A stretch of 64,000 bases of DNA from Methanobacteriota archaeon (GCA_020697715.1 JAEHCO010000005.1:32001-96000), one strand, 5' to 3'; positions 21,611-33,985 are shown, numbered from the stretch's first letter. Notes: a model not told the origin generated them from the sequence alone. Numbers and translations are program-made.

Positions 21611-22663
21611 ATGGAACATCTTGAGGATGAATTCAGCCTTCGGCTCCTTCGCCACCTGGTTTCAGGAGAGGGTGTGGATGTCAATATCAATGCTCTTGCC
21701 AAAAGACTCGGTATACACCGTACCACCGCAAAGAACAAGGTCAAGGCATTGATAGATCAAAAGATTCTGGATTACCCCAAATATCCATTCATCCATCTTT
21801 TTCAGGAGTATCCTTTACTCGTGCTTGCCTGGGCGGATATCCCGCGGATATCCCAAGCCAGGTCATTCTTTGAAGAGGATCTGAATATCTTTGCGGCATT
21901 TCCCTGCATGGAAGGTCCTTACAATACTCTTTTAATAGAATTCTTCGAGGATATGGAATCCTATCATTCATGGCGTGAGACTATAGTAAAAGATCAAAAA
22001 TTACCCCGGCGAGAGAATCGTACAGCTGCCGAGGTCTATATGTTTAGCAATAAGCTTGAATTCAAGTACGACCCAGCATGCTTCCTTAACAATATGCGGA
22101 GCGAATTCAAATCAAACAAGAAAATGATGATCGGTGACCATAAGCTGGATAAAACAGATTTCAGGATATTTGAATTACTCCTGAGCGGAGAATATATCCA
22201 TGTGAACGAAACATATCTGGCTAATAAATTAGGGACCAATAGAAAAAAGATAGGTCGTCGAATAGAGAAATTATTGAAAGATAACATTGTCGCTCCTGCA
22301 CGGTGCTATTTTCCAGATCTCCTCGCCCCTCCTAAATATAATATGATAATATCAATGATAGAATTGAAGTCGAATAGAAGTGAGATCAAGAAGTTCATTC
22401 TTGCAGATAATAATATCCCGAGGGCACTTGAAAGCAGTATTGGCAGGTATAATATTCTTCTATTCTCTGCATTCCCTGCTATTGATGAATTCTTTGAATG
22501 GGGGGATAGATTGATAAATAAATTCCCAGAGAGCATTGGAGCCATGTCAAATACGATCCTCTCATCTCGAACAATGCACACGATCAATGCTCAGAAGGTG
22601 TCTCTGGGGTTGATAGAAAAGATGTTGCTTGAACTTAGAAGGCAGAAGGCAAGGCAAAAATAG
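21611..22663 (+). CDS. Tandem Lrp/AsnC-like (wHTH + effector domain, x2) transcriptional regulator
   Basis: Two HTH segments (NINALAKRLGIHRTTAKNKV; NETYLANKLGTNRKKIGRRI), each followed by G.YN.LL...F.....F..W. Confidence 0.7.
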   Translation: MEHLEDEFSLRLLRHLVSGEGVDVNINALAKRLGIHRTTAKNKVKALIDQKILDYPKYPFIHLFQEYPLLVLAWADIPRISQARSFFEEDLNIFAAFPCMEGPYNTLLIEFFEDMESYHSWRETIVKDQKLPRRENRTAAEVYMFSNKLEFKYDPACFLNNMRSEFKSNKKMMIGDHKLDKTDFRIFELLLSGEYIHVNETYLANKLGTNRKKIGRRIEKLLKDNIVAPARCYFPDLLAPPKYNMIISMIELKSNRSEIKKFILADNNIPRALESSIGRYNILLFSAFPAIDEFFEWGDRLINKFPESIGAMSNTILSSRTMHTINAQKVSLGLIEKMLLELRRQKARQK

Positions 22664-22683
22664 ACACAACTTTATTATGTTTG

Positions 22684-22743
22684 CAATAGCACATTTGTCA
22701 TGTTTTTATTAAGTTAATATACCACAATGCACATATTTGACAT
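22684..22743 (+). promoter_or_regulatory. Imperfect direct repeat upstream of the gdhA TATA box; candidate operator
   Basis: CAATAGCACATTTGTCAT (22684-22701) and CAATGCACATATTTGACAT (22725-22743), followed by TTATATATTAA near 22762. Confidence 0.4.
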
Positions 22744-22813
22744 TATAACTGTGATATTATCTTATATATTAAATTCTATTTTATTGGTATCATAATCCCA
22801 GGAGGGATCATAT

Positions 22814-24100
22814 ATGGCAGATGACGGATACAACGCATTTGAGATAGAACAGGAACAGTTTGATCGAATGGCTGATAGTTTAGAGCTGGATAAGAGCGTG
22901 AGAGACCTATTGCGTTCACCCATTAGGGAATATCATTTCAATATTCCTGTTAAAATGGATGATGGCACTTTCAGGATCTTCAAAGGTTTTAGGATCCAGC
23001 ATAATGATGCCCGTGGCCCATGTAAAGGAGGAATAAGGTTCCACCCTCAGGAGACCGCGGATTCCGTGAGGGCACTTTCAATGTGGATGACCTGGAAATG
23101 CTCACTTGTGAACATCCCTCTGGGTGGAGGAAAGGGCGGGGTCATCTGTGACCCTCATAACCTTTCACAGAGAGAGCAGGAGAACCTGTGTAGGGGATGG
23201 GTTCGTCAAGTATACAAGAACCTTGGCCCGGACAATGACATTCCAGCCCCAGATGTGATGACCAATAGCCAGCACATGCTTTGGATGTTGGATGAATATG
23301 AGGCCATCAGCGGAGGTAGATACCCCGGAGCTATCACCGGAAAGCCTGTTGGAATGGGCGGCTCACTTGGCCGAACTGAGGCAACAGGTTATGGTGTAGT
23401 ATTTGTGCTGAGAGAAGCCCTTAAGGAATTAGAGATGGACATATCCAAGACCACAGCTTCTGTCCAGGGATTCGGCAATGTTGCCCAATATGCTATTGAA
23501 CTCTTTATCAAATATGGTGGAAAAGTCGTTTCAGTCTCTTGCTGGGATCAGAATGACCAAACAACATATGCATTTTTTAAACAAGATGGCATAGATCTGA
23601 AAGAATTGAGGAAGATAACCAATCGTTATGGAACAGTGGAAAAATCCAGGGCGGAGGAATTGGGCTACAAGGTATTGCCTGGTGATGACTGGCTGAAGCA
23701 GGATGTAGATATTCTCATACCAGCCGCACTAGAGAACTCGATCCATAAGGACAATGTCAAGGACATAAGCAATAAGGTCAAGATCATTGCAGAAGGTGCT
23801 AATGGACCAACAACACCAGAAGCTGATGAGCATCTCTATAGCAATGATGTTCTGGTGATACCGTGCTTCCTGGCCAATGCAGGCGGAGTGGTATGTAGCT
23901 ACTTCGAACAGGTCCAATCCAATACCAATTATTTCTGGCCAAAGGACGAGGTCCTGGGAAAGCTGGACGATAAGATGACAGATGCCTACTATGCAGTCAT
24001 CGAACTGAAAAAGAGAAGAAATATTCCTATGCGAGATGCGGCCTATATGATCGCCATATCGCGCGTAGCAGAGGCCTGCCATTTACGTGGCTGGGCATGA
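22814..24100 (+). CDS. gdhA: Glutamate dehydrogenase (Glu/Leu/Phe/Val family)
   Basis: RGPCKGGIRFHP, MTWK, GGGKGG, DIPAPDV, GGSLGRTEATGYG, QGFGNVA, EGANGPTT, NAGGV..SYFE. Confidence 0.96.
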   Translation: MADDGYNAFEIEQEQFDRMADSLELDKSVRDLLRSPIREYHFNIPVKMDDGTFRIFKGFRIQHNDARGPCKGGIRFHPQETADSVRALSMWMTWKCSLVNIPLGGGKGGVICDPHNLSQREQENLCRGWVRQVYKNLGPDNDIPAPDVMTNSQHMLWMLDEYEAISGGRYPGAITGKPVGMGGSLGRTEATGYGVVFVLREALKELEMDISKTTASVQGFGNVAQYAIELFIKYGGKVVSVSCWDQNDQTTYAFFKQDGIDLKELRKITNRYGTVEKSRAEELGYKVLPGDDWLKQDVDILIPAALENSIHKDNVKDISNKVKIIAEGANGPTTPEADEHLYSNDVLVIPCFLANAGGVVCSYFEQVQSNTNYFWPKDEVLGKLDDKMTDAYYAVIELKKRRNIPMRDAAYMIAISRVAEACHLRGWA

Positions 24101-24116
24101 TAATGGAAAGGGAACG

Positions 24117-27100
24117 ATGATCAAAAAATTCGATGAGATCGAAAAGATCATAGCTGAAGCAGCTAATAACAAAAAGGCAGGGGAGGTTAGTTCAACCTCG
24201 AGAGCAGGTAGCACTGCCTCTCCACGCCTCATCAGGAATATTCTCCTACTTTGTACTGAATATGATTATTTCATTCTGGAGGAGGAGGGTAGATTGACAT
24301 CACTCTTTCGTAAGATGTACGACCACATTGGGGGTAACCCCCCAAAGATAATCAAGGCAGAAAATGAGAAAGCCTTGTTGTCCATCCTGAAAACAAAGGA
24401 CATTGATGTTCTGATCATGTTCAAACCTCCAATTGAAATGGATGCATTTGCCCTGGCCAGGAAGGTTAAAGATCAAAAACCAGATCTGCCAATAGTTCTG
24501 GTTGATAATAATACAGAAGACCTTGATGAGCTGGTTGAAGCAAATACTGGTGAAACCATTGATTGGATATTCACATGGTTCGGTGATGGTAAGATATTCC
24601 TTAACATAACACAGTTCATAGAGGATCAGCAAAATTTTGGATCAGATACACCAATTCTCCCTCAAAGAGTGCTGATCATTGCCGAGTCTCCAAGATATTA
24701 TTCTAATCTATTGTCAGAGGCCTATGAAGCAATATGGGGTCAACTTAACAGTATTTTGCCAGAGGATATGCCATCTCCTTTGGAAAGCAGGCTCAGAAGG
24801 AGATATCCCCAGGTCCTTATTGCAGATTCCACCAAAGTAGCCAAAACGATATTTGCTGAAAACCTAGACGATATTCTCTGTGTTATAATCGACATTGACC
24901 AATCTAATATTGAGAAAAATGAATCATTACTATATCAATTCATAGAAAGAGTTGTAGAGACCAAACCTTCAGCTCCTACGTTGTTGTTATCCTCAGATTC
25001 TAATTGGCAATCAATGTCAGAATCAAGTGAAATAGATTTCTTACAAAAGGGCTCTCCTAATTATATTGGCAAGATACGGAACTTCATTCAGGATTCTTTG
25101 GGTTCCAAGGACTTATCCATTTCGGATAAGGATGGAGCAGAATTGATAAGAATTGAAGATATCAAGACCTTTGAAAAAGCCATTTGGACAATGCCTGCCC
25201 CCATCCTTCTAGATCACTCTCACAACAATAGTTTGATAAGATGGCTTATTTCGAGATTGGAGTTCGAGCTAGCACATGAATTTAAAACCATTATTTCAAT
25301 AGAAGATGAGCCTGAAATACTCCGAAAGAACATGACCGATGCCATGGAACAACACAGGCGAGATCTCAATAAGGGGGTGGTATCAAAATACTCTCGAAGA
25401 ACCTATGGAGAGCATTCAAGATTCTGTCGGATCGGCAAAGGTGCCATGGGGGGAAAGGCTAGAGGGCTTGCTTTCATGGACAAGATAATATCAAATTATC
25501 TGGAGAATGGCTTGTTCAGGAATTTGAATATCTCAATGCCCAGGACCATTGTCATCTGTTCGGATATCTTCGATTCATTCCTTGAGGATAATGACCTGGT
25601 TAACGAAGAGCTCTACTTCATGTCTGATGAAAGAATAGCAATGAAATTCATGGAAGCTGACCTACCACCAATATTACTTGGTGATCTTAGAGCCTTCGTC
25701 AGAGAGACAAAGGTTCCCATTGTCGTACGTTCGTCAAGCCTACTGGAGGATGCTTTGAACCATCCATTTGCAGGGGTTTATTCATCCCTTCTTCTACCAA
25801 ATGAATCATGGGAAACAGATCTAAGATTCCAGGAGCTTTGCAATGCTGTAAAATATGTGTTTGCCTCAGTCTTCTTCCAAAAGGCCAGAACTTACATGGA
25901 AACAACCCCCAACACGATAGAGGATGAGAAGATGGCTGTCATTATCCAGGAACTCATTGGCCAGAAATATGGTGATGTTTTCTACCCCACGATTTCCGGT
26001 GTAACGAAATCATACGAATATTATCCATCTGGCTCATGTAAGAACACAGATGGTGTGGTCAACTTGGCTTTGGGGCTAGGGAAGGCCGTGGTAGATGGAA
26101 GTAGCACATTCAGGTTCTGCCCGATGCATCCCAAGGTCCACAAATACGGAACTGTGAAAGAACTTCTGGGTCAATCCCAAAAGAAGTTCTATGCTGTGGA
26201 TCTGACCTCTTATGTTAATATTGTTCAGCGGGATGAGGATAGTGCCTTGGTCAAATTAGACTTGACAACAGCTGAGGAGCATGGCATACTGGATCATACG
26301 GCCTCTACATATTCGAATGAAAGATTATATCCCGGAATTGGGAGAGATGGTTCCAGAGTCATTGATTTCGCACCCATTCGTGAGCTGGGTATCATACCCC
26401 TTCCTAAGGCGATCCACATGCTCCTTCAAGTCGGTGAAATAGCCATAGGAACACCAGTGGAGATAGAATTTGCAGTCAATATCCATCCAGAACCCAAGCG
26501 ACCAGTCGATCTATATCTGTTACAAATTAGAAGTATGTTCTCCAATGTGGCTACCCAGGAAGTGGAGATCGGCCAGCATGATGAGAAGAATATCATCTGC
26601 TATACCGAGAATGTGCTTGGTAATGGTATAATTGATAATATCAAGGATATTGTTTTTGTCAAGCCTGAAGGATTTGAATTATCCAAAAACCAATCCATTG
26701 TTCCACAGATAAGGAAATTGAATAAAAAATTGATGGAAAGTAAAACCCCATACATTCTGATAGGCCCAGGCCGATGGGGATCCACAGACCAATGGCTAGG
26801 AATACCAGTAACCTGGAGTGACATAGCAGGAGCGAAGATCATAGTAGAAACCCCTGTGAAAGAGAGAATAATCGATCCATCCCAGGGTTCGCATTTCTTC
26901 CATAATATGACATCCGCTCACATCGGATATTTCACAATAACTCCATTTGGAAAAGGAACCATTGATTGGGATTGGCTGGGAGAACTTCCCACTGCTGAAG
27001 AGACCGAGAATCTGAAGCATATTCGCTTTGACACTCCCTTGGAAGTACGAATAGATGGCAATCATGGTCTCGGTGTGATACTGAAAAAGCTTTCGAAAGA

Positions 27101-27128
27101 AGTAATGGAGGTTGCTGAAGATGAATGA
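24117..27128 (+). CDS. PPDK/PEP-synthase-type ATP-grasp protein with N-terminal receiver-like domains; no pyruvate-binding barrel
   Basis: GGKARGLAF, VRSSSLLED, FAGVYSS, MAVIIQ, GLGKAVVDG, VEIEFA, LLQIR. C-terminal GPGRWGS...SQGSHFF. Confidence 0.85.
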   Translation: MIKKFDEIEKIIAEAANNKKAGEVSSTSRAGSTASPRLIRNILLLCTEYDYFILEEEGRLTSLFRKMYDHIGGNPPKIIKAENEKALLSILKTKDIDVLIMFKPPIEMDAFALARKVKDQKPDLPIVLVDNNTEDLDELVEANTGETIDWIFTWFGDGKIFLNITQFIEDQQNFGSDTPILPQRVLIIAESPRYYSNLLSEAYEAIWGQLNSILPEDMPSPLESRLRRRYPQVLIADSTKVAKTIFAENLDDILCVIIDIDQSNIEKNESLLYQFIERVVETKPSAPTLLLSSDSNWQSMSESSEIDFLQKGSPNYIGKIRNFIQDSLGSKDLSISDKDGAELIRIEDIKTFEKAIWTMPAPILLDHSHNNSLIRWLISRLEFELAHEFKTIISIEDEPEILRKNMTDAMEQHRRDLNKGVVSKYSRRTYGEHSRFCRIGKGAMGGKARGLAFMDKIISNYLENGLFRNLNISMPRTIVICSDIFDSFLEDNDLVNEELYFMSDERIAMKFMEADLPPILLGDLRAFVRETKVPIVVRSSSLLEDALNHPFAGVYSSLLLPNESWETDLRFQELCNAVKYVFASVFFQKARTYMETTPNTIEDEKMAVIIQELIGQKYGDVFYPTISGVTKSYEYYPSGSCKNTDGVVNLALGLGKAVVDGSSTFRFCPMHPKVHKYGTVKELLGQSQKKFYAVDLTSYVNIVQRDEDSALVKLDLTTAEEHGILDHTASTYSNERLYPGIGRDGSRVIDFAPIRELGIIPLPKAIHMLLQVGEIAIGTPVEIEFAVNIHPEPKRPVDLYLLQIRSMFSNVATQEVEIGQHDEKNIICYTENVLGNGIIDNIKDIVFVKPEGFELSKNQSIVPQIRKLNKKLMESKTPYILIGPGRWGSTDQWLGIPVTWSDIAGAKIIVETPVKERIIDPSQGSHFFHNMTSAHIGYFTITPFGKGTIDWDWLGELPTAEETENLKHIRFDTPLEVRIDGNHGLGVILKKLSKEVMEVAEDE

Positions 27129-30100
27129 TGGCCAGATATCAGGAAATGGTGCAGAACAGAGGCTTGAAGAGAGAATAAAGGAGCTCAATTGCATATATGG
27201 TATATCCGCAATCACTCAAGATGAAAGCATCACCCTAAATGAAGCACTACAGGATATTCTCCAGCTGATCTCCCAAGCTTGGCAGTATCCCAATTCCACA
27301 TATGCTCGAATTATCATAGATGATGAAGTTCATTCAACACCAAATTATAAAGAAACGCCCTGGCTACAATCAACCCAAATAAAGCATGGAGGAAAAATCA
27401 AGGGCATTATAGAGGTCGGCTATCTTGAAGAGATGCCAGCCATGGATGAAGGACCATTCTTAGCAGAGGAAAGAAAGTTACTCAAAGCCATTTCAGAGTT
27501 GATTGGAAACTTCATTGCACAAAGACAGATCCGTGATAGACTAAATAATAACAATAATAACATCAACAAGGCAGCTGATAAAGATGACTGGGAAATAATC
27601 TTGGGCATATTGATGAAGACAGACCCAAGAAGTTCTCTTCGAATTACAAGGCGCATGATATATCATCTTTACAGAATCCAGAACGAAGAAATTGCAGCTA
27701 TTGTGAACAGTATATGCCAGCTGGACGAGGCAGATTCTGAGTGGTGTGGGATCAATATACCCAATCCCAGAAAGGATATTGTAGCCTTGAAAAAAATACA
27801 AGCAGAGGTTTTTAAAATTGCGAAGGACGCTTTACCACCTGAGGAGATATCAAATCTATTCAATATGTGGCTGAAGGCTGATAAAGCTCGCCCTCTTCTT
27901 CTGGCTTCTCAAAAGCAAAGTATTCCTTTGACAGAGATCACAAGTGAACTCAATAGGTTCTGGGATATGCCGGAGGATGCCAGAACACTACTTCCTGAGG
28001 ATGATATATCCATATCCACAGCCCTCATACGTCGATTTTTCACCAGTAGGCTTGATTTCATCAACAATGCAAAAAAATACATTGGTGTTGGAGATTTTGT
28101 CAGTCTTTTAAAGACAGTTGTTGGTCCCCCTGAAGGAGAAGGAAAGCTGGGTGGAAAGATATCTGGTGTATATCTTGCTGAAAAAATAATCGAGATGGAA
28201 AAAATAACCCATGAGCACCTGCGGGATGTGAAATTCGCTGATAGCTGGTATATCACTTCAGACACACTGATAGATGTGATCCATTACAATGATCTGGATG
28301 ATATGGTACACATAAAATATCTTGATCCAAGCGAGATACGCCAGGAGCACCCATTTCTGGAACAACTCTTCAAAAATTCAATATTCCCTCCTGAGATCGA
28401 GAAAGGCCTTAACAGGATATTGAGAAATATTGGAGACAATCCAATAATCGTAAGGTCATCCAGCCTTCTTGAGGACAGCTTTGGAGCTGCATTCTCTGGA
28501 AAATACAAAAGCTTGTTTTTGGTCAATAAGGGTACATTGGAGGAAAAGAGAAACGCACTCATGGATGCAATATTAGAGGTTTATGCATCTACATTTGCCC
28601 CGGATCCCATTGAATACAGGAGAGAGCGTGGACTCCTTGACTTCTCGGAAGAGATGGGGATATTGATCCAGAAGGTCGTTGGAACGAAAATAGGCCCTTA
28701 TTACATCCCGGCATTTGCAGGTGTGGCCTTCAGCAACAATGAGTTCCGATGGTCTCCGAGAATAAGAAGAGAGGATGGAATAATCAGAATGGTCGCTGGC
28801 CTTGGAACAAGAGCTGTGGATAGGGTCGGAGATGATTATCCTGTATTGGTATCTCCCAATAAGCCAGATATTCAGGTGAATGCCCTTGTTGATGAATCTA
28901 TTCAATATTCACAGCATTTCATGGATGTCATTAATATTGAAAAGGGAACCTTTGAAACAGTAAGCTCCCTGGATCTCATTAGAGAATATTGGGATGTTTA
29001 TCCAATAATAACCAAAATAGTTTCCATACATCGTGATGGAATACTCAGACCAGTCACAGGTGTATTGATGGATATCGAAGATGCGGATCTTGTCATAACC
29101 TTCTCTGGGTTGATAGAAAAAACTTCTTTCATCAAACAGATCAAAAGTGTTTTAAATATTTTGCAGGAAAAGATGGGAACCCCAGTAGACGTGGAGTTCG
29201 CACACGATGGTGAAAAACTTCACATATTACAGTGTCGTCCTCAAAGCTTTGGCAAGGAGACAGTACGAGTCCCAATACCAAAGAACATACCCAATAACAG
29301 GAAGATATTCTCAGCAAGTAAATACGTAACTAACAGCCACATAAAAAATATCGAATATATGGTCTATGTGAGGCCTAGTGCATATGATGCTTTGAGCGAG
29401 AGAAACGATATGCTGAATGTGGCCAAAGCCGTGGGTGGTCTAAATAAGGCTCTTCCAAAAGGTAGGTTCATCCTAATGGGGCCTGGCCGATGGGGAAGCC
29501 GAGGAGACATCAAGTTGGGTGTGCCTATTTCATATAGTGACATTAACAACACTTCACTTCTGATAGAGATAGCTATCAAAAAAGGAGGTTATCTACCTGA
29601 CCTCTCCTTTGGCACGCACTTCTTCCAGGATCTCGTCGAGGCAGATATCCATTATCTACCACTTTATCCTGACGATCCAGATTCTATATTCAATGAAAAT
29701 CTGATGAACATGGCCCCCAATAGGCTTGGTGAATTACTACCAAAATACAAGGATATGGAACATGTGATCCAGGTAATTCAGATCGCAGATATCTCTGATG
29801 GTGGGACCATGAATGTCGTAATGGACGGGGAAGCGAATGATGCACTTGCCTATGTCATGCCACCTGATCACTGGACCTGGAGGATGAAGAAGGTCGAGGA
29901 ATTAGGCAATATGCTGGATGCCGAATTGTATGGGGTTGAAGCATTTTATGTCTTCGGGAGCACCAAAGAAGCAACTGCTGGCCCGGCAAGTGACATTGAT
30001 CTTCTGATACATTTCAACGGAAATGAGGAACAGAGAGAGAGTCTTCTATCCTGGCTCCATGAACGTGGTGTCAAGTTGGGAAAGGAGAATAAAGAAAGGA

Positions 30101-30237
30101 CAGGGGGCCAGACAGATGACATACTGGATGTTCACATAATCACAGATGAAGATATTAAGAACAAGAGTTCATGGGCAGTGCATATTAACTCTCCTCATAG
30201 TGCTGCAAAGAAGATACCATTAAGAAATGATAACTAA
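27121..30237 (+). CDS. Paralogous PPDK-type ATP-grasp protein with N-terminal GAF-like sensor segment and C-terminal Pol-beta-type nucleotidyltransferase domain
   Basis: LEERIKELNCIYGIS...EGPFLAEERKLL; LGGKISG, VRSSSLLED.FGAAFSGKY, GLGTRAVD, DVEFA, LQCRP, GPGRWGS, SFGTHFF; then YVFGSTKEATAGPASDIDLLIH. Confidence 0.85.
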   Translation: MNDGQISGNGAEQRLEERIKELNCIYGISAITQDESITLNEALQDILQLISQAWQYPNSTYARIIIDDEVHSTPNYKETPWLQSTQIKHGGKIKGIIEVGYLEEMPAMDEGPFLAEERKLLKAISELIGNFIAQRQIRDRLNNNNNNINKAADKDDWEIILGILMKTDPRSSLRITRRMIYHLYRIQNEEIAAIVNSICQLDEADSEWCGINIPNPRKDIVALKKIQAEVFKIAKDALPPEEISNLFNMWLKADKARPLLLASQKQSIPLTEITSELNRFWDMPEDARTLLPEDDISISTALIRRFFTSRLDFINNAKKYIGVGDFVSLLKTVVGPPEGEGKLGGKISGVYLAEKIIEMEKITHEHLRDVKFADSWYITSDTLIDVIHYNDLDDMVHIKYLDPSEIRQEHPFLEQLFKNSIFPPEIEKGLNRILRNIGDNPIIVRSSSLLEDSFGAAFSGKYKSLFLVNKGTLEEKRNALMDAILEVYASTFAPDPIEYRRERGLLDFSEEMGILIQKVVGTKIGPYYIPAFAGVAFSNNEFRWSPRIRREDGIIRMVAGLGTRAVDRVGDDYPVLVSPNKPDIQVNALVDESIQYSQHFMDVINIEKGTFETVSSLDLIREYWDVYPIITKIVSIHRDGILRPVTGVLMDIEDADLVITFSGLIEKTSFIKQIKSVLNILQEKMGTPVDVEFAHDGEKLHILQCRPQSFGKETVRVPIPKNIPNNRKIFSASKYVTNSHIKNIEYMVYVRPSAYDALSERNDMLNVAKAVGGLNKALPKGRFILMGPGRWGSRGDIKLGVPISYSDINNTSLLIEIAIKKGGYLPDLSFGTHFFQDLVEADIHYLPLYPDDPDSIFNENLMNMAPNRLGELLPKYKDMEHVIQVIQIADISDGGTMNVVMDGEANDALAYVMPPDHWTWRMKKVEELGNMLDAELYGVEAFYVFGSTKEATAGPASDIDLLIHFNGNEEQRESLLSWLHERGVKLGKENKERTGGQTDDILDVHIITDEDIKNKSSWAVHINSPHSAAKKIPLRNDN

Positions 30238-31088
30238 TCTATTGAGATAAGTTCTCTTGTTGCATTGGCCAGGTCATCTGTATCGAACCTTATCAAAGCG
30301 ATCTCTGAACCATCATGGGCAGCATTGAAGGAGTGCGTTTTCCCTTTCATTTCACGCCATTGGCCAGTCAATCTGGCAGATTCATGAATATGCCCATGCA
30401 GTGTGAGCAATGGCTGTTTTTCATCTATGAAACGCTGAACCGCGATACTTCCCACATGAATGTCCATGGGGGCATGATCAACTTTCATGCCATCCAATGC
30501 CGCCCTATCTAAATTGGAATCATAAGGTGGAGCGTGGAATAGGTAAATCGTCCTATCTGGGGGAGAGGCCAGGGCTAGCTTTTTTAGATCATTGGCAATG
30601 GTGGCTGTTCTGATTTCTTTTTCAGGTACTTGCACTGTACGGACACCTTCCTCTGGTGAAACACAGCCCACATCCACATGTCTTGAAACATCATAACGCT
30701 CCCAATCCTTGAATTGGAATGGAGTGGGGTTAACATAAGAATAGCCAGTGATGTACAAATTATCAAAAGAAATTGTACGATCGTGCAGATATTCTATCAA
30801 TCCGGATTTATCTGCCTCTAGGAACAATGCTTCATACTGGCGTGGGTCATCATTCCCCATTATGACGAAGAAACGAGTTTTGGATCCATTGGCTTCTGAA
30901 TAAACCTTGATAAGTGAAAATAATTCATTCTCTAAGAAGAGCTCTGGGTCTTCCTCCATCCCCAAGCCACTTGGGAAGATATCCCCTCCAAACAAAACTG
31001 CATCTGGCTCTTCGATGGAAATTATCTTAAATAATTTCCTGTATTTGTCAACATTCCCATGTAGGTCCGAGACGAAAAAGCATTTCAA
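30234..31088 (-). CDS. Calcineurin-like metallophosphoesterase
   Basis: SDLHG, GGD, GNDD, HAPPY, HGHIHE. Its stop overlaps the stop of the convergent gene. Confidence 0.9.
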   Translation of the reverse strand: MKCFFVSDLHGNVDKYRKLFKIISIEEPDAVLFGGDIFPSGLGMEEDPELFLENELFSLIKVYSEANGSKTRFFVIMGNDDPRQYEALFLEADKSGLIEYLHDRTISFDNLYITGYSYVNPTPFQFKDWERYDVSRHVDVGCVSPEEGVRTVQVPEKEIRTATIANDLKKLALASPPDRTIYLFHAPPYDSNLDRAALDGMKVDHAPMDIHVGSIAVQRFIDEKQPLLTLHGHIHESARLTGQWREMKGKTHSFNAAHDGSEIALIRFDTDDLANATRELISID

Positions 31089-31261: not shown

Positions 31262-32170
31262 GTGAATGATACATTTAAAGGCATGGTGCATACTGTGTTA
31301 AACTCAAATGGATCAATGATCGATACTATCAAGAAAAGAACATCTGTTAGAACATATGATGAGCAGAAAATAACAGAAGAGATCTTTGACCAAATAACGA
31401 TCATACTAAAGAAATTCGAGGCTGAGCCAGGTCCCTTTGGAAATTATTCAAGATTTCAGATCCTGAAGCTCGATAATGAAGAGTCTCACCAAGGAGTGAA
31501 ACTGGGCACTTATGGTTTTATTAAAGGTCACATGGCCTATCTTGTGGCGATTTGCTCAAAAGAGAACGAGGCCATAATCGATATGGGATATTCTTTTGAG
31601 AAGGTGATCCTGAACATGACACAGATGGGGCTGGGCACATGCTGGATCGGGGGCACATTCAGCCGAGAATCTTTCATGAAATTCATCGATCTAAAGGACA
31701 ATGAATTCATTGGCGCTATCTCACCAATTGGTTATGGTTCAGATAATAATAGGATCAAGGAAAAAATTATCAGAAGAACCGCAGGTGCGGACAATAGAAA
31801 ATCCTGGGATCAGATGTTTTTCAAAAATGACTTTTCAACAGAGCTGAAAAAAGAACATGCTGGGGAATTGGAGATCGCATTCGAAATGGTGAGATGGGGG
31901 CCATCAGCATCCAATAAACAACCCTGGCGACTTATGTTGGTTGAAGAACAGGACATACGAACAATTCATTTTTATCTGGATTTTGACCCAAAATACACTG
32001 GCAATACTAAGCTGGGATATCCCATACAGAAACTTGACATCGGGATCGCCATGAGTCATTTCGAGGTCTCGGCAATAGAACTCGAAAAAGCAGGAAAATG
32101 GGTATTTGAGGAGCCAGATATGAAGAAGATAAATGATCAATATGAATATGTCGGTAGCTATTCGATATAA
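31262..32170 (+). CDS. Nitroreductase family protein (two-domain)
   Basis: IKKRTSVRTY, GLGTCWIGG, GPSASNKQPWR, DIGIAMSHF. Start may be 31316. Confidence 0.88.
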   Translation: MNDTFKGMVHTVLNSNGSMIDTIKKRTSVRTYDEQKITEEIFDQITIILKKFEAEPGPFGNYSRFQILKLDNEESHQGVKLGTYGFIKGHMAYLVAICSKENEAIIDMGYSFEKVILNMTQMGLGTCWIGGTFSRESFMKFIDLKDNEFIGAISPIGYGSDNNRIKEKIIRRTAGADNRKSWDQMFFKNDFSTELKKEHAGELEIAFEMVRWGPSASNKQPWRLMLVEEQDIRTIHFYLDFDPKYTGNTKLGYPIQKLDIGIAMSHFEVSAIELEKAGKWVFEEPDMKKINDQYEYVGSYSI

Positions 32171-32338: not shown

Positions 32339-33985
32339 ATGAGTTTGATCATCCCCATATTAGCCGCGATCGCCGCGGTTGCAGGCATATTGACCAATGC
32401 GTTCATTATCGAGTCTGACAGGTCAGACTGGAATGAGGTCTTGAAAAAGGTTATGATCATCGGTCTGGTGATCGGCATAGCATTTGGAGTTTTGAACTAC
32501 TTCATAATGATCAAGACCTATGCGATCAACCTGGTCTTTGTTTTCACTTTCTTATTCATAATCGGGTTCTGGATATCATATGGATTATTTAGTTCAAAAA
32601 AGGTATTTCCAGGAATTGCCGCGATCATCGTGCTGGTCATACTTTTACTATCACCTTATGCAATGACCAAGCAATTGTATGAACTGGCAGATGTGGAGGT
32701 TGCCACTGAAAAACCCATGGTAATTGACACCTCCCATCTTAGACAGGTCAACTACGAATATGCAAAATGGAAGGCGGATAAAGTAGTGGGTGAGATGGGA
32801 AATAGAGTGATGATCGGAGAATTGGAGATCATTCTTTTCCAGGGGAGATTGACATGGGTCTGTCCCCTCATACACAGAGGCATTTTCAAGCAATGGGAAT
32901 ATGATATCACACCCGGATATATCCTGGTGGATGGAGAGGATCCCACCAAAGAAGCTATACTTGTGGATGATTATGATATCGATTATTCCTACGAAAATGA
33001 ATTCTTCAGCGAGTACATGCACAGGATAGTTTACAATGAATATCCAGACCATAATCAATATTGGTCCTTCGAGATCGATGAAACGGGAGCGCCATGGGTC
33101 ATCGTCACACTCAGCCAGCCCACAGTCTCATACCGTGGAGATGTGGCAGATACTGTAGTGGTCGTGTCTCCCCTGAACAAGACCATGACAAGCTATCCAT
33201 TTGGATCGCAACCTGATTGGATAGACAATGCATTCCCGGAGGAGCTGGCGGAGAAATATTGTGAGTGGTGGGGAAGCTACAAGCATGGCTTCTGGAACAC
33301 CCTTGTTACTGAGAAGGATGTTAAGAGACCGACTGCGAAGAACAATGCCTATTCCCAGGATGGTGCAGGTTATTTCGGCACCGATGTTTACATGATAGTC
33401 GGAAAAGACAATCAATCTTACTGGTTCACGGATTTCACATCACCAGCCAGCTCGGATCAGAGCATGGTGGGTTACGCTTTGATAAATACACAGACCGGTA
33501 AAATGAACTTCTATGAAGTTACTGGACTTCTCAATGGGGATGCCGCAATGGAAGCCGCGACCGCGAAAGTGACCAATTTTGTAGGTTGGTATGCGACACA
33601 ACCCATATTCCTGATAATTGATGGAAATGAGACCTGGTTCACCCCGATCCATTCTGGAACGAACATATTGCAGAAGGTGGCACTGGTCCAAGCTCTTGAT
33701 GGGAAGGTCATAATGGGTGACACCCTGGAAGAAGTTCTGGCACAGTTCGATTTTGATAACATTGTTCCAGCAGACGTCAATTCAACAATAATCACCTTGA
33801 ATGGTACTGTGAATGACATTCACTCATATGTTGTGGATGGAGAAACTGAATGGTATCTGGATATCAATGGAACCGTGGTATACGCTTACTCCAACACCCA
33901 GCCTTTCCTGATCAATGTGGGGAACCATGTGACCGTCGAATACCAGGTGACTGACAACAGGAATATCATGGTAAGTTGGGATTGA
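32339..33985 (+). CDS. Membrane protein (about 4 N-terminal TM helices) with a large soluble domain; function unknown
   Basis: Long ORF with a purine-rich SD-like sequence upstream and a hydrophobic N-terminus; no catalytic motif recognised. Confidence 0.7.
   Translation: MSLIIPILAAIAAVAGILTNAFIIESDRSDWNEVLKKVMIIGLVIGIAFGVLNYFIMIKTYAINLVFVFTFLFIIGFWISYGLFSSKKVFPGIAAIIVLVILLLSPYAMTKQLYELADVEVATEKPMVIDTSHLRQVNYEYAKWKADKVVGEMGNRVMIGELEIILFQGRLTWVCPLIHRGIFKQWEYDITPGYILVDGEDPTKEAILVDDYDIDYSYENEFFSEYMHRIVYNEYPDHNQYWSFEIDETGAPWVIVTLSQPTVSYRGDVADTVVVVSPLNKTMTSYPFGSQPDWIDNAFPEELAEKYCEWWGSYKHGFWNTLVTEKDVKRPTAKNNAYSQDGAGYFGTDVYMIVGKDNQSYWFTDFTSPASSDQSMVGYALINTQTGKMNFYEVTGLLNGDAAMEAATAKVTNFVGWYATQPIFLIIDGNETWFTPIHSGTNILQKVALVQALDGKVIMGDTLEEVLAQFDFDNIVPADVNSTIITLNGTVNDIHSYVVDGETEWYLDINGTVVYAYSNTQPFLINVGNHVTVEYQVTDNRNIMVSWD

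What the first reader, a model, noticed from the sequence alone, without database searches (positions are those of the whole stretch)
21611..31088. gdhA locus with two sensor-fused 'orphan' dikinases, a nucleotidyltransferase domain and a phosphoesterase: candidate covalent-modification system for nitrogen metabolism
Seen: regulator -> gdhA -> ~1000-aa protein A -> ~1040-aa protein B <- metallophosphoesterase (stops overlap). A and B each have a PPDK/PEP-synthase ATP-grasp domain and a shared C-terminal domain (GPGRWGS...S.G[ST]HFF) with an invariant His, but neither has the pyruvate/PEP-binding barrel. A has receiver-like N-terminal domains. B has a GAF-like sensor segment and a Pol-beta-type NTase tail (FGS...SDIDL). 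Established: ATP-grasp plus phospho-His modules without the barrel phosphorylate other substrates (rifampin phosphotransferase, glucan water dikinase), and Pol-beta NTases regulate nitrogen enzymes (GlnD/GlnE). I recall similar genes beside gdhA in anaerobic bacteria, usually labelled 'PEP synthase'. Inference: a signal-responsive writer/eraser system acting on GDH or a related metabolite, not gluconeogenic PEP synthases.
Basis: partly seen in the sequence, partly recalled or inferred. Interest (0 to 1): 0.78.

Follow-up and report, generated by a model that had tools for sequence, protein, structure and literature searches.

The report
Glutamate dehydrogenase with dedicated dikinase-like partners
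An archaeal glutamate dehydrogenase gene is followed by two large sensor-fused, ATP-using enzymes related to pyruvate phosphate dikinase and faced by a phosphoesterase gene, a cassette conserved in many bacteria and archaea that probably controls this central nitrogen enzyme by a chemistry nobody has yet shown.

Summary
Regulator, GDH, A (1013 aa), B (1041 aa) and a convergent metallophosphoesterase lie as described. A and B carry a PPDK-type ATP-grasp domain and a shared, Pfam-unannotated C-terminal domain with an invariant His, and no PEP/pyruvate barrel. The genome has its own complete PPDK elsewhere.

A's N-terminus folds as tandem receiver domains. B's tail is an intact Pol-beta nucleotidyltransferase. 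B's "GAF-like" segment could not be verified. The C-terminal domain models as a swivelling beta/beta/alpha fold; its best matches are phosphohistidine carrier domains of PPDK, rifampin phosphotransferase and Enzyme I, at modest Z (5-6.3).

Linkage to GDH is strong. A second A-type paralog in this genome sits beside a second GDH. 36 of 80 mostly bacterial loci have a GDH within 500 bp of the A-type gene. 37 of 38 GDHs of the window's subtype in its phylum abut an A/B-family gene. The phosphoesterase travels with B.

These are not PEP synthases. They are most likely signal-gated His-(di)kinase-like regulators dedicated to GDH. The closest precedent is VadK of Mycobacterium tuberculosis. Covalent modification of GDH remains inference.

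This scan found the same cassette before on other DNA (at least 16 notes). No paper on it was found.

The parts
21611..22663 (+). Transcription regulator with two winged-HTH regions (350 aa). It is a lineage-specific member of the cassette.
   Evidence: HTH_24 and HTH_11 hits. Orthologs at 59-60% identity lie directly upstream of GDH1-A1 in G014, G017 and G021, and at 50% identity in L012. It is absent from the bacterial loci: 0 of the other 79.
22814..24100 (+). GDH1: a 428-aa hexameric-type glutamate dehydrogenase of a dedicated subtype.
   Evidence: ELFV_dehydrog_N and ELFV_dehydrog. The closest solved structure is P. furiosus GDH 1gtm, E 4e-120. In 301 genomes of the phylum there are 38 matches at 68-100% identity, and the next tier is <= 53%; 37 of the 38 abut an A/B-family gene. 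Subtype-specific features include a 6-residue insertion after strand 'vv.VS' and invariant H115, C126 and H154.
24087..27128 (+). Protein A (A1 type, 1013 aa): pseudo-receiver, receiver, helical linker, ATP-grasp, His-bearing C-terminal domain.
24234..24641 (+). A residues ~50-185: first (beta-alpha)5 domain, a pseudo-receiver without the Asp/Thr/Lys signature.
   Evidence: AF2 model mc987f3ff7a39 (pLDDT 88.6). The best Foldseek hit is the PleD tandem REC (2wb4, E 2.3e-8). Conservation over 91 sequences shows its own motifs (EEDGR, F.W.G, ED..N) and no acceptor Asp.
24654..25091 (+). A residues ~190-335: second receiver domain, with conserved D269, S302 and K321.
   Evidence: nearly invariant D, S, K. 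79 of 81 N-terminal regions hit PF00072. In the window's A the acidic pair reads A199/E200 where the family consensus is E/D.
25104..25376 (+). A residues ~340-430: beta-hairpin plus five helices (DUF5752-like linker).
   Evidence: Model secondary structure. 55 of 81 relatives hit PF19027 (DUF5752), best E 1.5e-7.
25443..26561 (+). A residues 453-825: PPDK/PEP-synthase-type ATP-grasp nucleotide-binding domain.
   Evidence: PF01326, E 1.3e-37. K457, R548, S549, S550, E554, D555, E794, Q813 and R815 are invariant in 25 and 85 sequences.
26589..27101 (+). A residues ~835-1005: C-terminal domain with GPGRWGS and the invariant His936, of swivelling beta/beta/alpha fold.
   Evidence: AF2 model m83d9ce239cd2 (pLDDT 85.1, pTM 0.85). 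VIA-align hits: 2fm4 PPDK phosphoryl carrier domain Z 6.3, 2e28 Z 6.3, 1vbg Z 5.7, 5hv1 RPH 756-867 Z 5.7, Enzyme I Z 5.0-5.3. No Pfam family matches: 0 of 81 hit PF00391 at E <= 10.
27112..30237 (+). Protein B (1041 aa): N-terminal sensor-like module, helical region, ATP-grasp, the same C-terminal His domain, and a Pol-beta nucleotidyltransferase tail.
27112..27561 (+). B residues 1-150: conserved N-terminal module of unidentified fold (invariant E20, R21, K23, E24, L25, C27, Y29).
   Evidence: Invariant columns in 60 and 35 sequences. No Pfam or PDB sequence match. tblastn matches to this part (B residues ~7-160, 31-44% identity) occur as separate pieces near A-type genes in Bacteroidota and unclassified bacterial loci.
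28147..29283 (+). B residues 346-724: ATP-grasp (PPDK_N).
   Evidence: PF01326, E 3.1e-51. The best solved relative of the B-family profile is rifampin phosphotransferase (5hv6/5fbs, E 4e-8), over the ATP-grasp only.
29314..29691 (+). B residues ~735-860: C-terminal His domain (GPGRWGS ... FGTH836FF).
   Evidence: Aligned with A's domain. G790-S796 and S832-F838 are invariant in 60 sequences.
29869..30234 (+). B residues ~920-1041: minimal Pol-beta/MNT-type nucleotidyltransferase.
   Evidence: PF01909 at 33.7 bits against a cut-off of 21, and PF18765. 35 of 35 relatives carry it. G949, S950, D961, D963, D1012 and D1014 are invariant.
30234..31088 (-). Calcineurin-like metallophosphoesterase (284 aa), convergent with B; the stop codons overlap.
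   Evidence: PF00149 at 57.3 bits. The metal-binding motifs read intact in the translation. 29 of 40 orthologs (>= 41% identity) in the phylum lie on the same contig within about 5 kb of an A/B-family match. It is adjacent to B in 7 of 9 loci that hold B among the 80 fetched loci.

Best explanation
The window holds a four-gene cassette plus a lineage-specific regulator. The four genes are a dedicated glutamate dehydrogenase (GDH1), two paralogous PPDK-derived enzymes (A and B) and a metallophosphoesterase.

Proposed mechanism:
1. A and B bind ATP in a PEP-synthase-type ATP-grasp domain.
2. They transfer phosphate to an invariant His on a highly divergent swivel-type carrier domain, as PPDK, PEP synthase, rifampin phosphotransferase and VadK do.
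3. They lack any pyruvate/PEP barrel, so the phosphoryl group, or the phospho-state itself, is used on something else. The most likely target is the GDH encoded next door. This could be covalent phosphorylation, or phospho-state-dependent binding as proposed for VadK with methylcitrate-cycle enzymes.
4. Input comes through A's receiver domain (conserved Asp269) and B's N-terminal sensor module.
5. B's nucleotidyltransferase tail may add a nucleotidyl mark.
6. The phosphoesterase may remove the mark or reset the system.

A second, simpler module in the same genome (GDH2 plus an A2-type protein) would control the GdhA-like enzyme in the same way.

Shown here: the domain composition, the conservation of catalytic-type residues, the fold resemblance, and the gene linkage.
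Inferred: His autophosphorylation, GDH as the target, and the roles of the NTase tail and the phosphoesterase.
For: Domains:
- Both proteins have an ATP-grasp domain with conserved nucleotide-site residues.
- The shared C-terminal domain has an invariant His.
- The model of that domain (pLDDT 85.1) matches phosphohistidine carrier domains best: 2fm4 Z 6.3, 1vbg Z 5.7, 5hv1 756-867 Z 5.7, Enzyme I Z 5.0-5.3. Seven of the top 15 rows are such domains or their pyruvate-kinase homolog.
- The His sits at the N-terminus of a helix, after a strand and a loop. I recall the catalytic His of the TSH motif sitting the same way.
- There is no barrel domain, and a complete PPDK lies elsewhere in the genome.

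Linkage within this genome and order:
- The genome's third family member (A2) is convergent with a second GDH.
- In the order, 16 of 21 full-length A-type matches lie within 500 bp of a GDH domain match.

Linkage in the phylum:
- At least 44 of 87 genomes with an A-type match have a listed GDH within 5 kb. This is a lower bound, because only 150 of 364 GDH matches were listed.
- Starting from GDH1 instead of A, 37 of 38 GDH1-type genes abut an A/B-family gene.

Linkage in bacteria:
- 49 of 80 loci, nearly all bacterial and from many phyla, hold a GDH; 36 of the 80 within 500 bp of the A-type gene.
- Clustering all 959 ORFs of those loci shows no other widely recurrent neighbour.

Specific pairing:
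- The A-type clade that contains the window's A coincides with the loci that hold GDH1, B or the phosphoesterase.

Phosphoesterase:
- It co-locates with B/A1.

Precedent:
- VadK is a truncated PPDK with only an ATP-grasp and a His domain. It autophosphorylates His422 and pulls down methylcitrate synthase and dehydratase (PMC13400623: abstract and sections 8, 16, 17 read).
Against: - There is no direct evidence of binding or modification.
- The C-terminal domain is not recognisable as a PEP-utilizers domain by sequence. 0 of 81 hit PF00391 at E <= 10. A profile search of PDB sequences found nothing. hhalign against a 29-sequence swivel-domain profile gave probability 0.4%. Foldseek found nothing at E <= 0.001.
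- The structural Z scores (5-6.3) lie in the range the tool calls common.
- 31 of 80 A-type loci have no GDH within the fetched flanks, several of them with full 9-kb flanks. Many Bacteroidales A-type genes are not adjacent to a GDH.
- GDH2-type enzymes next to A2 differ from unlinked ones at only one column (W202 against Y), so no modification-site signature appears.
- None of 45 longer GDH homologs is fused to PPDK_N.
- The window's A has a weakened acidic pocket in its receiver (A199/E200).
Confidence: 0.5

Rival explanations
1. A and B are small-molecule dikinases, like rifampin phosphotransferase, glucan water dikinase or the hydroxyphenylethanone kinases. They would phosphorylate a metabolite tied to glutamate or 2-oxoglutarate metabolism, and GDH would sit beside them as a pathway partner rather than a target. 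The phosphoesterase would hydrolyse the product or a by-product.
For: - Most characterised barrel-less relatives known to me act on small molecules or glucans. RPH is the best solved sequence relative of the B-family profile (E 4e-8).
- Papers on RPH, glucan water dikinase, HapC, MarK and a two-component hydroxyphenylethanone kinase appear in the listing. Only titles and abstract starts were seen.
- GDH produces a 2-oxo acid, the class of substrate that PEP synthase phosphorylates (established knowledge).
Against: - No substrate-binding domain lies between or after the ATP-grasp and the His domain. In RPH a roughly 430-residue domain sits there (recalled). Here the two domains are contiguous.
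- The extra domains are signalling modules: tandem receivers and a sensor-like N-terminus.
- Each GDH type has its own A-type clade, which fits protein-protein specificity better than a shared metabolite.
- No further pathway enzymes recur in the loci.
Confidence: 0.2
2. A-type proteins are response regulators whose ATP-grasp/His module serves an internal or separate phosphorelay, for example His to the receiver Asp, or to another protein. That relay would control something other than GDH activity, and adjacency to gdh would reflect only co-regulation under nitrogen or carbon status.
For: - The second receiver domain keeps the Asp/Ser/Lys signature across 91 sequences.
- 79 of 81 N-terminal regions hit PF00072.
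- Histidine kinase genes lie directly beside the A-type gene in L046, L083 and L087.
- 31 of 80 loci lack a GDH.
Against: - Adjacency is very tight: gaps of 50-300 bp, overlapping start and stop codons in the window. It survives changes of orientation and transfer between domains of life.
- GDH1-type genes are found essentially only with the module: 37 of 38.
- B has no receiver domain, yet it follows GDH1 directly in L009 and L010.
Confidence: 0.15
3. A and B are ordinary PEP synthases or PPDKs, as many database labels say ('pyruvate, water dikinase', 'PEP/pyruvate-binding domain-containing protein').
For: PPDK_N hits, and the names given by sources.
Against: - Neither protein has a PF02896 barrel or a PF00391 domain.
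- NCBIfam PEP synthase equivalog scores of 50-57 bits fall far below cut-offs of 598-883.
- The genome encodes a complete 868-aa PPDK with all three domains.
Confidence: 0.02

Closest known systems
VadK (Rv1127c) of Mycobacterium tuberculosis, a PPDK-derived regulatory histidine (di)kinase (PMC13400623; abstract and sections 8, 16, 17 read)
   Same: It has an ATP-grasp domain plus a His domain and no PEP/pyruvate barrel. It acts as a regulator of metabolic enzymes rather than a gluconeogenic enzyme, and it is reported to interact physically with the enzymes it controls.
   Different: - By the paper's account VadK is a plain truncated PPDK of about 50 kDa. Its own sequence was not examined here.
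- A and B are about 1000 aa. Their carrier-like domain is too divergent for PF00391.
- They are fused to receiver, sensor and nucleotidyltransferase modules.
- They are linked to GDH and a phosphoesterase, and they occur across many phyla and both prokaryotic domains.
- Autophosphorylation has not been tested for A or B.
Rifampin phosphotransferase (RPH; PDB 5hv1, 5fbs)
   Same: The order of domains is the same: ATP-grasp first, His domain last. RPH is the best solved sequence relative of the B-family ATP-grasp (E 4e-8). Its His domain (residues 756-867) aligns with the model of A's C-terminal domain at Z 5.7.
   Different: RPH has a large rifampin-binding domain between the two (RPH abstract; its position and size are recalled). 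A and B have none. RPH has no sensor, receiver or NTase modules and no link to GDH.
PEP synthase / pyruvate phosphate dikinase (PF01326 + PF00391 + PF02896)
   Same: Homologous ATP-grasp domain with conserved nucleotide-site residues, and probably the same first half-reaction (inferred).
   Different: There is no barrel domain, and the mobile domain is not recognisable by sequence. The genome has a genuine PPDK elsewhere.
GlnE/GlnD control of glutamine synthetase and PII (recalled)
   Same: The concept: a central nitrogen enzyme controlled by Pol-beta-superfamily nucleotidyltransferases, with a removing activity.
   Different: Nothing is shared beyond the Pol-beta fold of B's tail. One of 35 B relatives gave a chance-level PF03710 hit (E 0.059). 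The target here would be GDH, and the main catalytic module is a dikinase-type ATP-grasp.
PleD-type tandem receiver response regulators
   Same: A's residues 41-448 model as two (beta-alpha)5 domains that match the PleD tandem REC (E 2.3e-8). One domain has the acceptor signature and the other does not.
   Different: The order is reversed: the pseudo-receiver comes first. The output is an ATP-grasp/His module, not a GGDEF domain.

Membership tests
PEP synthase / PPDK | N-terminal ATP-grasp nucleotide-binding domain (PF01326) | tested here: met
   A: E 1.3e-37. B: E 3.1e-51.
PEP synthase / PPDK | PEP-utilizers mobile phosphohistidine domain (PF00391) recognisable by sequence | tested here: not met
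   There is no hit in A or B. PF00391 hits only the canonical PPDK in the genome. 0 of 81 C-terminal domains hit it at E <= 10. hhalign gave probability 0.4%.
PEP synthase / PPDK | C-terminal PEP/pyruvate-binding TIM barrel (PF02896) | tested here: not met
   No hit in A or B at E <= 0.01, and no residues are left to hold it. The genome's real PPDK has it at E 9.6e-76.
Phosphohistidine swivel-domain carriers (fold level) | Swivelling beta/beta/alpha fold with the His at a helix N-terminus | tested here: inconclusive
   The model has pLDDT 85.1. Top VIA-align rows include 2fm4, 1vbg, 5hv1 and Enzyme I at Z 5.0-6.3, below the level the tool treats as decisive. Foldseek found none at E <= 0.001. 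No residue-level superposition of the His was available.
Rifampin phosphotransferase-like small-molecule dikinases | Substrate-binding domain inserted between the ATP-grasp and the His domain | tested here: not met
   PPDK_N ends at A 825 / B 724, and the C-terminal domain starts about 10 residues later.
VadK-like truncated PPDK regulators | ATP-grasp plus His domain only, with His autophosphorylation | not testable with these tools
   The architecture is compatible. Autophosphorylation needs an experiment. The His domain here is not the canonical one.
Response regulator receiver (REC) | (beta-alpha)5 fold with the conserved acceptor Asp, a Ser/Thr and a Lys | tested here: met
   Fold: PleD, E 2.3e-8. 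PF00072 hits 79 of 81 relatives. D269, S302 and K321 are nearly invariant. The first domain lacks them, and the window's A has A199/E200 in the acidic pair.
Pol-beta / MNT nucleotidyltransferase | G[GS] x9-13 D x [DE] motif and a family HMM score above the cut-off | tested here: met
   PF01909 at 33.7 bits against 21, and PF18765 at 28.4 against 26.9. G949, S950, D961 and D963 are invariant in 60 sequences.
Calcineurin-like metallophosphoesterase | PF00149 above the cut-off, with intact metal-binding motifs | tested here: met
   57.3 bits against 21.5. DLHG, GGD, GNDD, FHAPP and GHIH are read in the translation. The motif definitions are recalled.
GAF sensor domain (B N-terminus) | Match to a GAF family or fold | tested here: inconclusive
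   No GAF hit by Pfam: none for B at E <= 0.01, and none among the 25 of 36 families shown for 35 relatives at E <= 1. No GAF hit by PDB profile. An Atlas lead at 0.81 points to a cluster in which 20% of members carry GAF. No structure was predicted.
Glu/Leu/Phe/Val dehydrogenase (hexameric GDH) | Both ELFV domains, and the catalytic GGGKGG region | tested here: met
   E 1.1e-54 and 3.7e-73. Aligned to 1gtm over residues 8-427.

The most novel reading that the evidence does not exclude
This would be a dedicated post-translational switch for prokaryotic glutamate dehydrogenase, of a kind not described before. It would be spread by transfer of the whole module between archaea and many bacterial phyla. 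Receiver- or sensor-gated dikinase-type enzymes would load phosphate on a cryptic swivel His and pass it to GDH. A fused minimal nucleotidyltransferase would add a second, nucleotidyl mark, and a partner metallophosphoesterase would erase it. Separate A-type clades would serve the catabolic-type (GDH1) and the GdhA-type (GDH2) enzymes, which would let a cell run the two in opposite directions without a futile cycle.
Probability: 0.3. Interest if true: 0.85.

Novelty: new variant of a known kind. Interest (0 to 1): 0.7.

Why it matters
GDH sits at the junction of carbon and nitrogen metabolism. In prokaryotes its control is understood mostly at the level of transcription and small-molecule effectors.

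Here a conserved enzyme-encoding cassette sits tightly beside gdh genes. It occurs in gut Bacteroides and Prevotella, in soil Acidobacteriota, in Ignavibacteria, in sulfate reducers and in one archaeal phylum. That points to an unstudied layer of control that costs ATP.

- It gives a concrete candidate for old reports of reversible GDH inactivation in Bacteroides. Those reports are recalled; one search found no such paper in the library.
- It adds a large, cross-domain branch to the small set of PPDK-derived regulators, of which VadK is the only studied case I found.
- It corrects a widespread misannotation as 'PEP synthase' or 'pyruvate, water dikinase' in many thousands of database entries. 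Both homolog searches were capped at about 8000 candidates, and nearly all of those scored.

Tried and rejected
1. Complex prediction. I ran A core (residues 445-1013) with GDH1, each chain with its own alignment. The result was no verdict (ipSAE 0.00 twice; the controls were not run). It says nothing either way.

2. Sequence-level homology of the C-terminal domain to PEP-utilizers. All four tests were negative:
- profile against PDB sequences;
- hhalign against a 29-sequence swivel-domain profile from relatives (probability 0.4%);
- Pfam at E <= 10 on 81 members;
- Foldseek against the PDB.
Only the exhaustive structural aligner gave the carrier-domain matches.

3. A modification-site signature in GDH2-type enzymes. 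I compared 61 linked with 27 unlinked sequences. Only one column differs, W202 against Y.

4. Rosetta-stone fusions of GDH with PPDK_N. None was found among 45 longer GDH homologs. The tool itself calls that weak evidence.

5. Absence of histidine kinases as an argument for self-phosphorylation of the receiver. I rejected this, because the genome has at least one hybrid kinase.

6. Alternative recurrent partners in A-type loci without a GDH. The neighbours are miscellaneous, and clustering found none that recurs widely.

7. GAF identity of B's N-terminus. It is not supported by sequence.

8. A second look with the pdb_via and pdb_via_wide libraries for the two models. The libraries were not available.

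9. Literature. No paper links PPDK_N-type proteins to GDH. A recalled Bacteroides locus-tag guess was wrong: BT1971 is a catalase.

10. Bacterial-type promoter and terminator scan. It is not informative for an archaeon.

Full report
**What is in the window.**

Between 21611 and 31088 lie five genes:
- a 350-aa protein with two HTH regions;
- a 428-aa glutamate dehydrogenase (GDH1);
- protein A (1013 aa);
- protein B (1041 aa);
- on the opposite strand, a 284-aa calcineurin-like metallophosphoesterase.

The GDH and A overlap by 14 nt if A starts at its GTG. A's stop overlaps B's ATG. The stop codons of B and the phosphoesterase overlap. Flanking genes (an Lhr-type helicase and a NOG1-type GTPase) and the names of the closest homologs (Thermoplasmata and Thermoplasmatota MAGs) place the window in an archaeon of that phylum.

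**Anatomy of A and B.**

Both have a PPDK_N ATP-grasp domain: A 453-825, E 1.3e-37; B 346-724, E 3.1e-51. Neither hits the PEP-utilizers mobile domain or the PEP/pyruvate barrel. NCBIfam PEP synthase models score 50-57 bits against cut-offs of 598-883. A and B align at 29% identity over about 530 columns (E 8e-42). The aligned stretch runs through the ATP-grasp into a shared C-terminal domain with GPGRWGS and G[ST]HFF. In alignments of 25, 85 and 60 family members the following are invariant:
- the ATP-grasp residues K457, R548-S550, E554, D555, E794, Q813 and R815 (A numbering);
- the C-terminal GPGRWG motif;
- His936 (B: His836).

The genome holds four PPDK_N proteins: A, B, a third A-like protein (A2), and one complete 868-aa PPDK with all three canonical domains. 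PEP/pyruvate interconversion therefore has its own enzyme.

**The C-terminal domain.**

By sequence it belongs to no described family:
- 0 of 81 members hit PF00391, or any consistent Pfam family, at E <= 10.
- A profile finds nothing in PDB sequences.
- hhalign against a swivel-domain profile built from 29 relatives' PPDKs gives probability 0.4%.

An AlphaFold2 model of A 820-1013, built with 81 sequences, is confident (pLDDT 85.1, pTM 0.85). Foldseek finds nothing at E <= 0.001. The exhaustive aligner, however, places these hits at the top:

| Chain | What it is | Z |
|---|---|---|
| 2e28 | PEP-utilizer-like C-terminal domain of B. stearothermophilus pyruvate kinase | 6.3 |
| 2fm4 | PPDK phosphoryl carrier domain | 6.3 |
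| 1vbg, residues 374-511 | maize PPDK | 5.7 |
| 5hv1, residues 756-867 | rifampin phosphotransferase | 5.7 |
| 5t12, 2wqd, 5woy | Enzyme I His domains | 5.0-5.3 |

Other members of the swivelling beta/beta/alpha fold appear in the same list (aconitase-type swivel domains, chaperonin apical domains).

The Z values are modest, and the tool warns that such values can reflect a common arrangement. In the model, His936 sits at the N-terminus of a helix that follows a strand and a Gly-containing loop. As I recall it, the catalytic His of the TSH motif sits the same way. No residue-level superposition was available. My reading is that this is a strongly diverged carrier-type domain; I hold it as likely, not shown.

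**The other domains.**

A 41-448 models with pLDDT 88.6 as two (beta-alpha)5 domains followed by a hairpin and five helices. The best Foldseek matches are the tandem receivers of PleD (E 2.3e-8) and 3mf4/3luf.
- Across 91 A-type proteins the first domain lacks the receiver signature. It has its own conserved motifs.
- The second domain keeps the acidic pair, the acceptor Asp (D269), a Ser (S302) and the Lys (K321). The window's A reads A199/E200 in the acidic pair.
- 79 of 81 N-terminal regions hit PF00072, and 55 of 81 hit DUF5752 in the linker.

B's tail is a minimal Pol-beta/MNT nucleotidyltransferase with invariant G949, S950, D961, D963, D1012 and D1014.

B's first ~150 residues form a conserved module (invariant E20, R21, K23, E24, L25, C27, Y29) with no family match.

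The phosphoesterase has all the metal-binding motifs.

**Linkage to GDH.**

*In this genome.* A2 (986 aa, 36% identical to A) is convergent with a second, GdhA-like GDH (GDH2, 449 aa) on another contig.

*In the order (22 genomes).* 16 of 21 full-length A-type matches lie within 500 bp of a GDH domain match. In three genomes both modules sit in one roughly 12-kb cluster.

*In the phylum (301 genomes, >= 80% complete).*
- 87 have an A-type match, concentrated in a few families. GDH is present in 279.
- By hand count, at least 44 of the 87 have a listed GDH within 5 kb. This is a lower bound, because only 150 of 364 GDH matches were listed.
- An unbiased test starts from GDH1 instead of A. It finds 38 matches at 68-100% identity, and the next tier is <= 53%. 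37 of the 38 abut an A/B-family match. The 38th lies on a different contig from its genome's A fragment.

GDH1 is therefore a dedicated subtype.

*In bacteria.* A scan of one genome per species returned at least 600 stretches with the two C-terminal motifs. The 80 best loci are nearly all bacterial and come from many phyla:
- Bacteroidota, including Bacteroides, Prevotella and Parabacteroides;
- Ignavibacteriales, Acidobacteriota, Desulfobacterales and Chlorobiota;
- Gemmatimonadales, Spirochaetaceae and Bacillota;
- Zixiibacteriota, Bdellovibrionota and others.

They are 34-44% identical to A over residues 49-1000. 49 of the 80 hold a GDH, 36 of them within 500 bp of the A-type gene. By a rough estimate of my own, one or two GDH genes per 2-5 Mb genome would give about 1% by chance. 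Clustering all 959 ORFs of these loci shows that only the A/B family (80 loci) and GDH (47 loci) recur widely.

**Two modules with specific pairing.**

GDH sequences from these loci fall into three clades:
- the GDH1 type;
- a 415-aa type;
- the GdhA-like GDH2 type, in which linked and unlinked enzymes are mixed and some archaeal linked GDHs nest among bacterial linked ones.

GDH1 goes with B and the phosphoesterase in L009-L013, L018 and L021. GDH2 goes with A2-type proteins. In a tree of 91 A-type proteins, the clade that contains the window's A consists of the loci that hold GDH1, B or the phosphoesterase.

The phosphoesterase is adjacent to B in 7 of 9 loci that hold B. In the phylum, 29 of 40 orthologs lie on the same contig within about 5 kb of an A/B-family match; the other 11 lie on other contigs.

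The regulator is lineage-specific. It is found upstream of GDH1-A1 in G014, G017, G021 and L012 only.

**What sets GDH1 apart.**

I compared 28 GDH1-type sequences with 22 unlinked enzymes of the nearest (415-aa) type. Fifteen columns discriminate between them:
- a six-residue insertion (S-C-W-D-Q-x-D, with W244 and Q246 invariant) directly after the strand 'vv.VS' of the dinucleotide-binding domain. The insertion is visible against P. furiosus GDH. From memory, this position is where coenzyme preference is set;
- H115 (where the other type has Lys), Q122, C126, M149, H154, W293, G328 and Q366.

In contrast, GDH2-type enzymes next to A2 differ from unlinked ones at a single column. No modification site can be read from the sequence alone.

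**Mechanism.**

The most economical reading is that A, A2 and B are signal-gated, PPDK-derived His-(di)kinase-like enzymes dedicated to the neighbouring GDH.
- The domain content is shown, and so are the conserved catalytic-type residues, the fold resemblance and the linkage.
- ATP-dependent His phosphorylation is inferred, as is action on GDH, whether covalent or by phospho-dependent binding. The tail's nucleotidyl transfer and the phosphoesterase's erasing or resetting role are inferred too.

The closest studied analogue is VadK of M. tuberculosis. It is a truncated PPDK that autophosphorylates His422 and pulls down methylcitrate synthase and dehydratase (PMC13400623; abstract and sections 8, 16, 17 read).

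Three rivals remain:
- a small-molecule dikinase in a glutamate/2-oxoglutarate-linked pathway;
- a response-regulator relay whose adjacency to gdh reflects only co-regulation;
- an ordinary PEP synthase, which the domain content contradicts.

**Novelty and earlier work.**

Seven literature searches found no paper on this family or on a GDH-PPDK_N link. Supplements could not be read. This scan has noted the same cassette on other genomes many times. My results agree with those notes. They add:
- the unbiased GDH1 test;
- the clade-to-clade pairing;
- the receiver signature;
- the GDH1-specific insertion;
- several negative results.

I file it as a new variant of a known kind (PPDK-derived phosphotransfer enzymes and regulators). 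It has a realistic chance of being a new type of covalent control system for GDH.

Noticed in passing
window 22814-24100 (GDH1), residues ~243-248: GDH1-type enzymes carry an invariant six-residue insertion (S-C-W-D-Q-x-D) right after a strand of the dinucleotide-binding domain. They also have invariant H115, C126 and H154, which the nearest unlinked GDH type lacks. The function of these features is unknown.
   Followed up: partly
G000 contig C11:421466-425921 (locus L007:7467-11922), outside the window: A second module in the same genome: an A2-type protein (986 aa) convergent with a GdhA-like GDH (449 aa). It lies among unrelated genes (Cdc6, a cytidine deaminase, Dfp).
   Followed up: yes
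L053:5508-5855, L055:5375-5734, L056:12285-12710, L067:7142-7564, L070:321-665, L074:5365-5766, L085:5520-5930: tblastn matches to B's N-terminal module (B residues ~7-160, 31-44% identity) occur as separate pieces near A-type genes in Bacteroidota and unclassified bacterial loci. In L053, L055, L070, L074 and L085 the piece lies just upstream of an A-type gene. The module therefore seems to be a mobile sensor unit.
   Followed up: no
G171, G303, G102, G207, G183, G189, G213, G291, G243 (family f17): In one family of small genomes the A-type gene and the GDH are divergent and always about 2.9 kb apart, so an unidentified gene or two lies between them.
   Followed up: no
L046:11935-14163; L083:4880-8809; L087:4907-8809: Histidine kinase genes (one GAF-HisKA-HATPase kinase, and two hybrid two-component proteins in Bacteroides) lie 40-126 bp from the A-type gene. 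They are possible cognate kinases for its receiver domain.
   Followed up: partly
L059, L073, L040, L060: GltD-like (Fer4_20 + Pyr_redox_2) and PyrK-like iron-sulfur flavoprotein genes recur 0.8-7.6 kb from the A-type gene. In L059 and L073 they lie within 1.7 kb. L059, L060 and L073 are Acidobacteriota and L040 is Spirochaetaceae.
   Followed up: no
window 32339-33985: A 548-aa ORF downstream of the cassette has no Pfam hit and only a chance-level NCBIfam hit. It is not conserved in the 80 related loci.
   Followed up: no
window 31262-32170: A TM1586-type nitroreductase gene lies next to the phosphoesterase. It is not found in the related loci, so it is not part of the cassette.
   Followed up: partly
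G003:C45:22816-25659: One genome of the order (91% complete) has an A2-type gene but no clear GDH match anywhere; its best PF00208 hit is E 1.3e-5. Its neighbours were not examined.
   Followed up: no
G025:C4:77604-79280; G157:C1:35844-37460; G036:C130:3601-5256: Short family members (open frames of 589-670 aa) match only A residues ~447-1011, that is ATP-grasp plus C-terminal domain without any sensor part. Their neighbourhoods were not examined.
   Followed up: no
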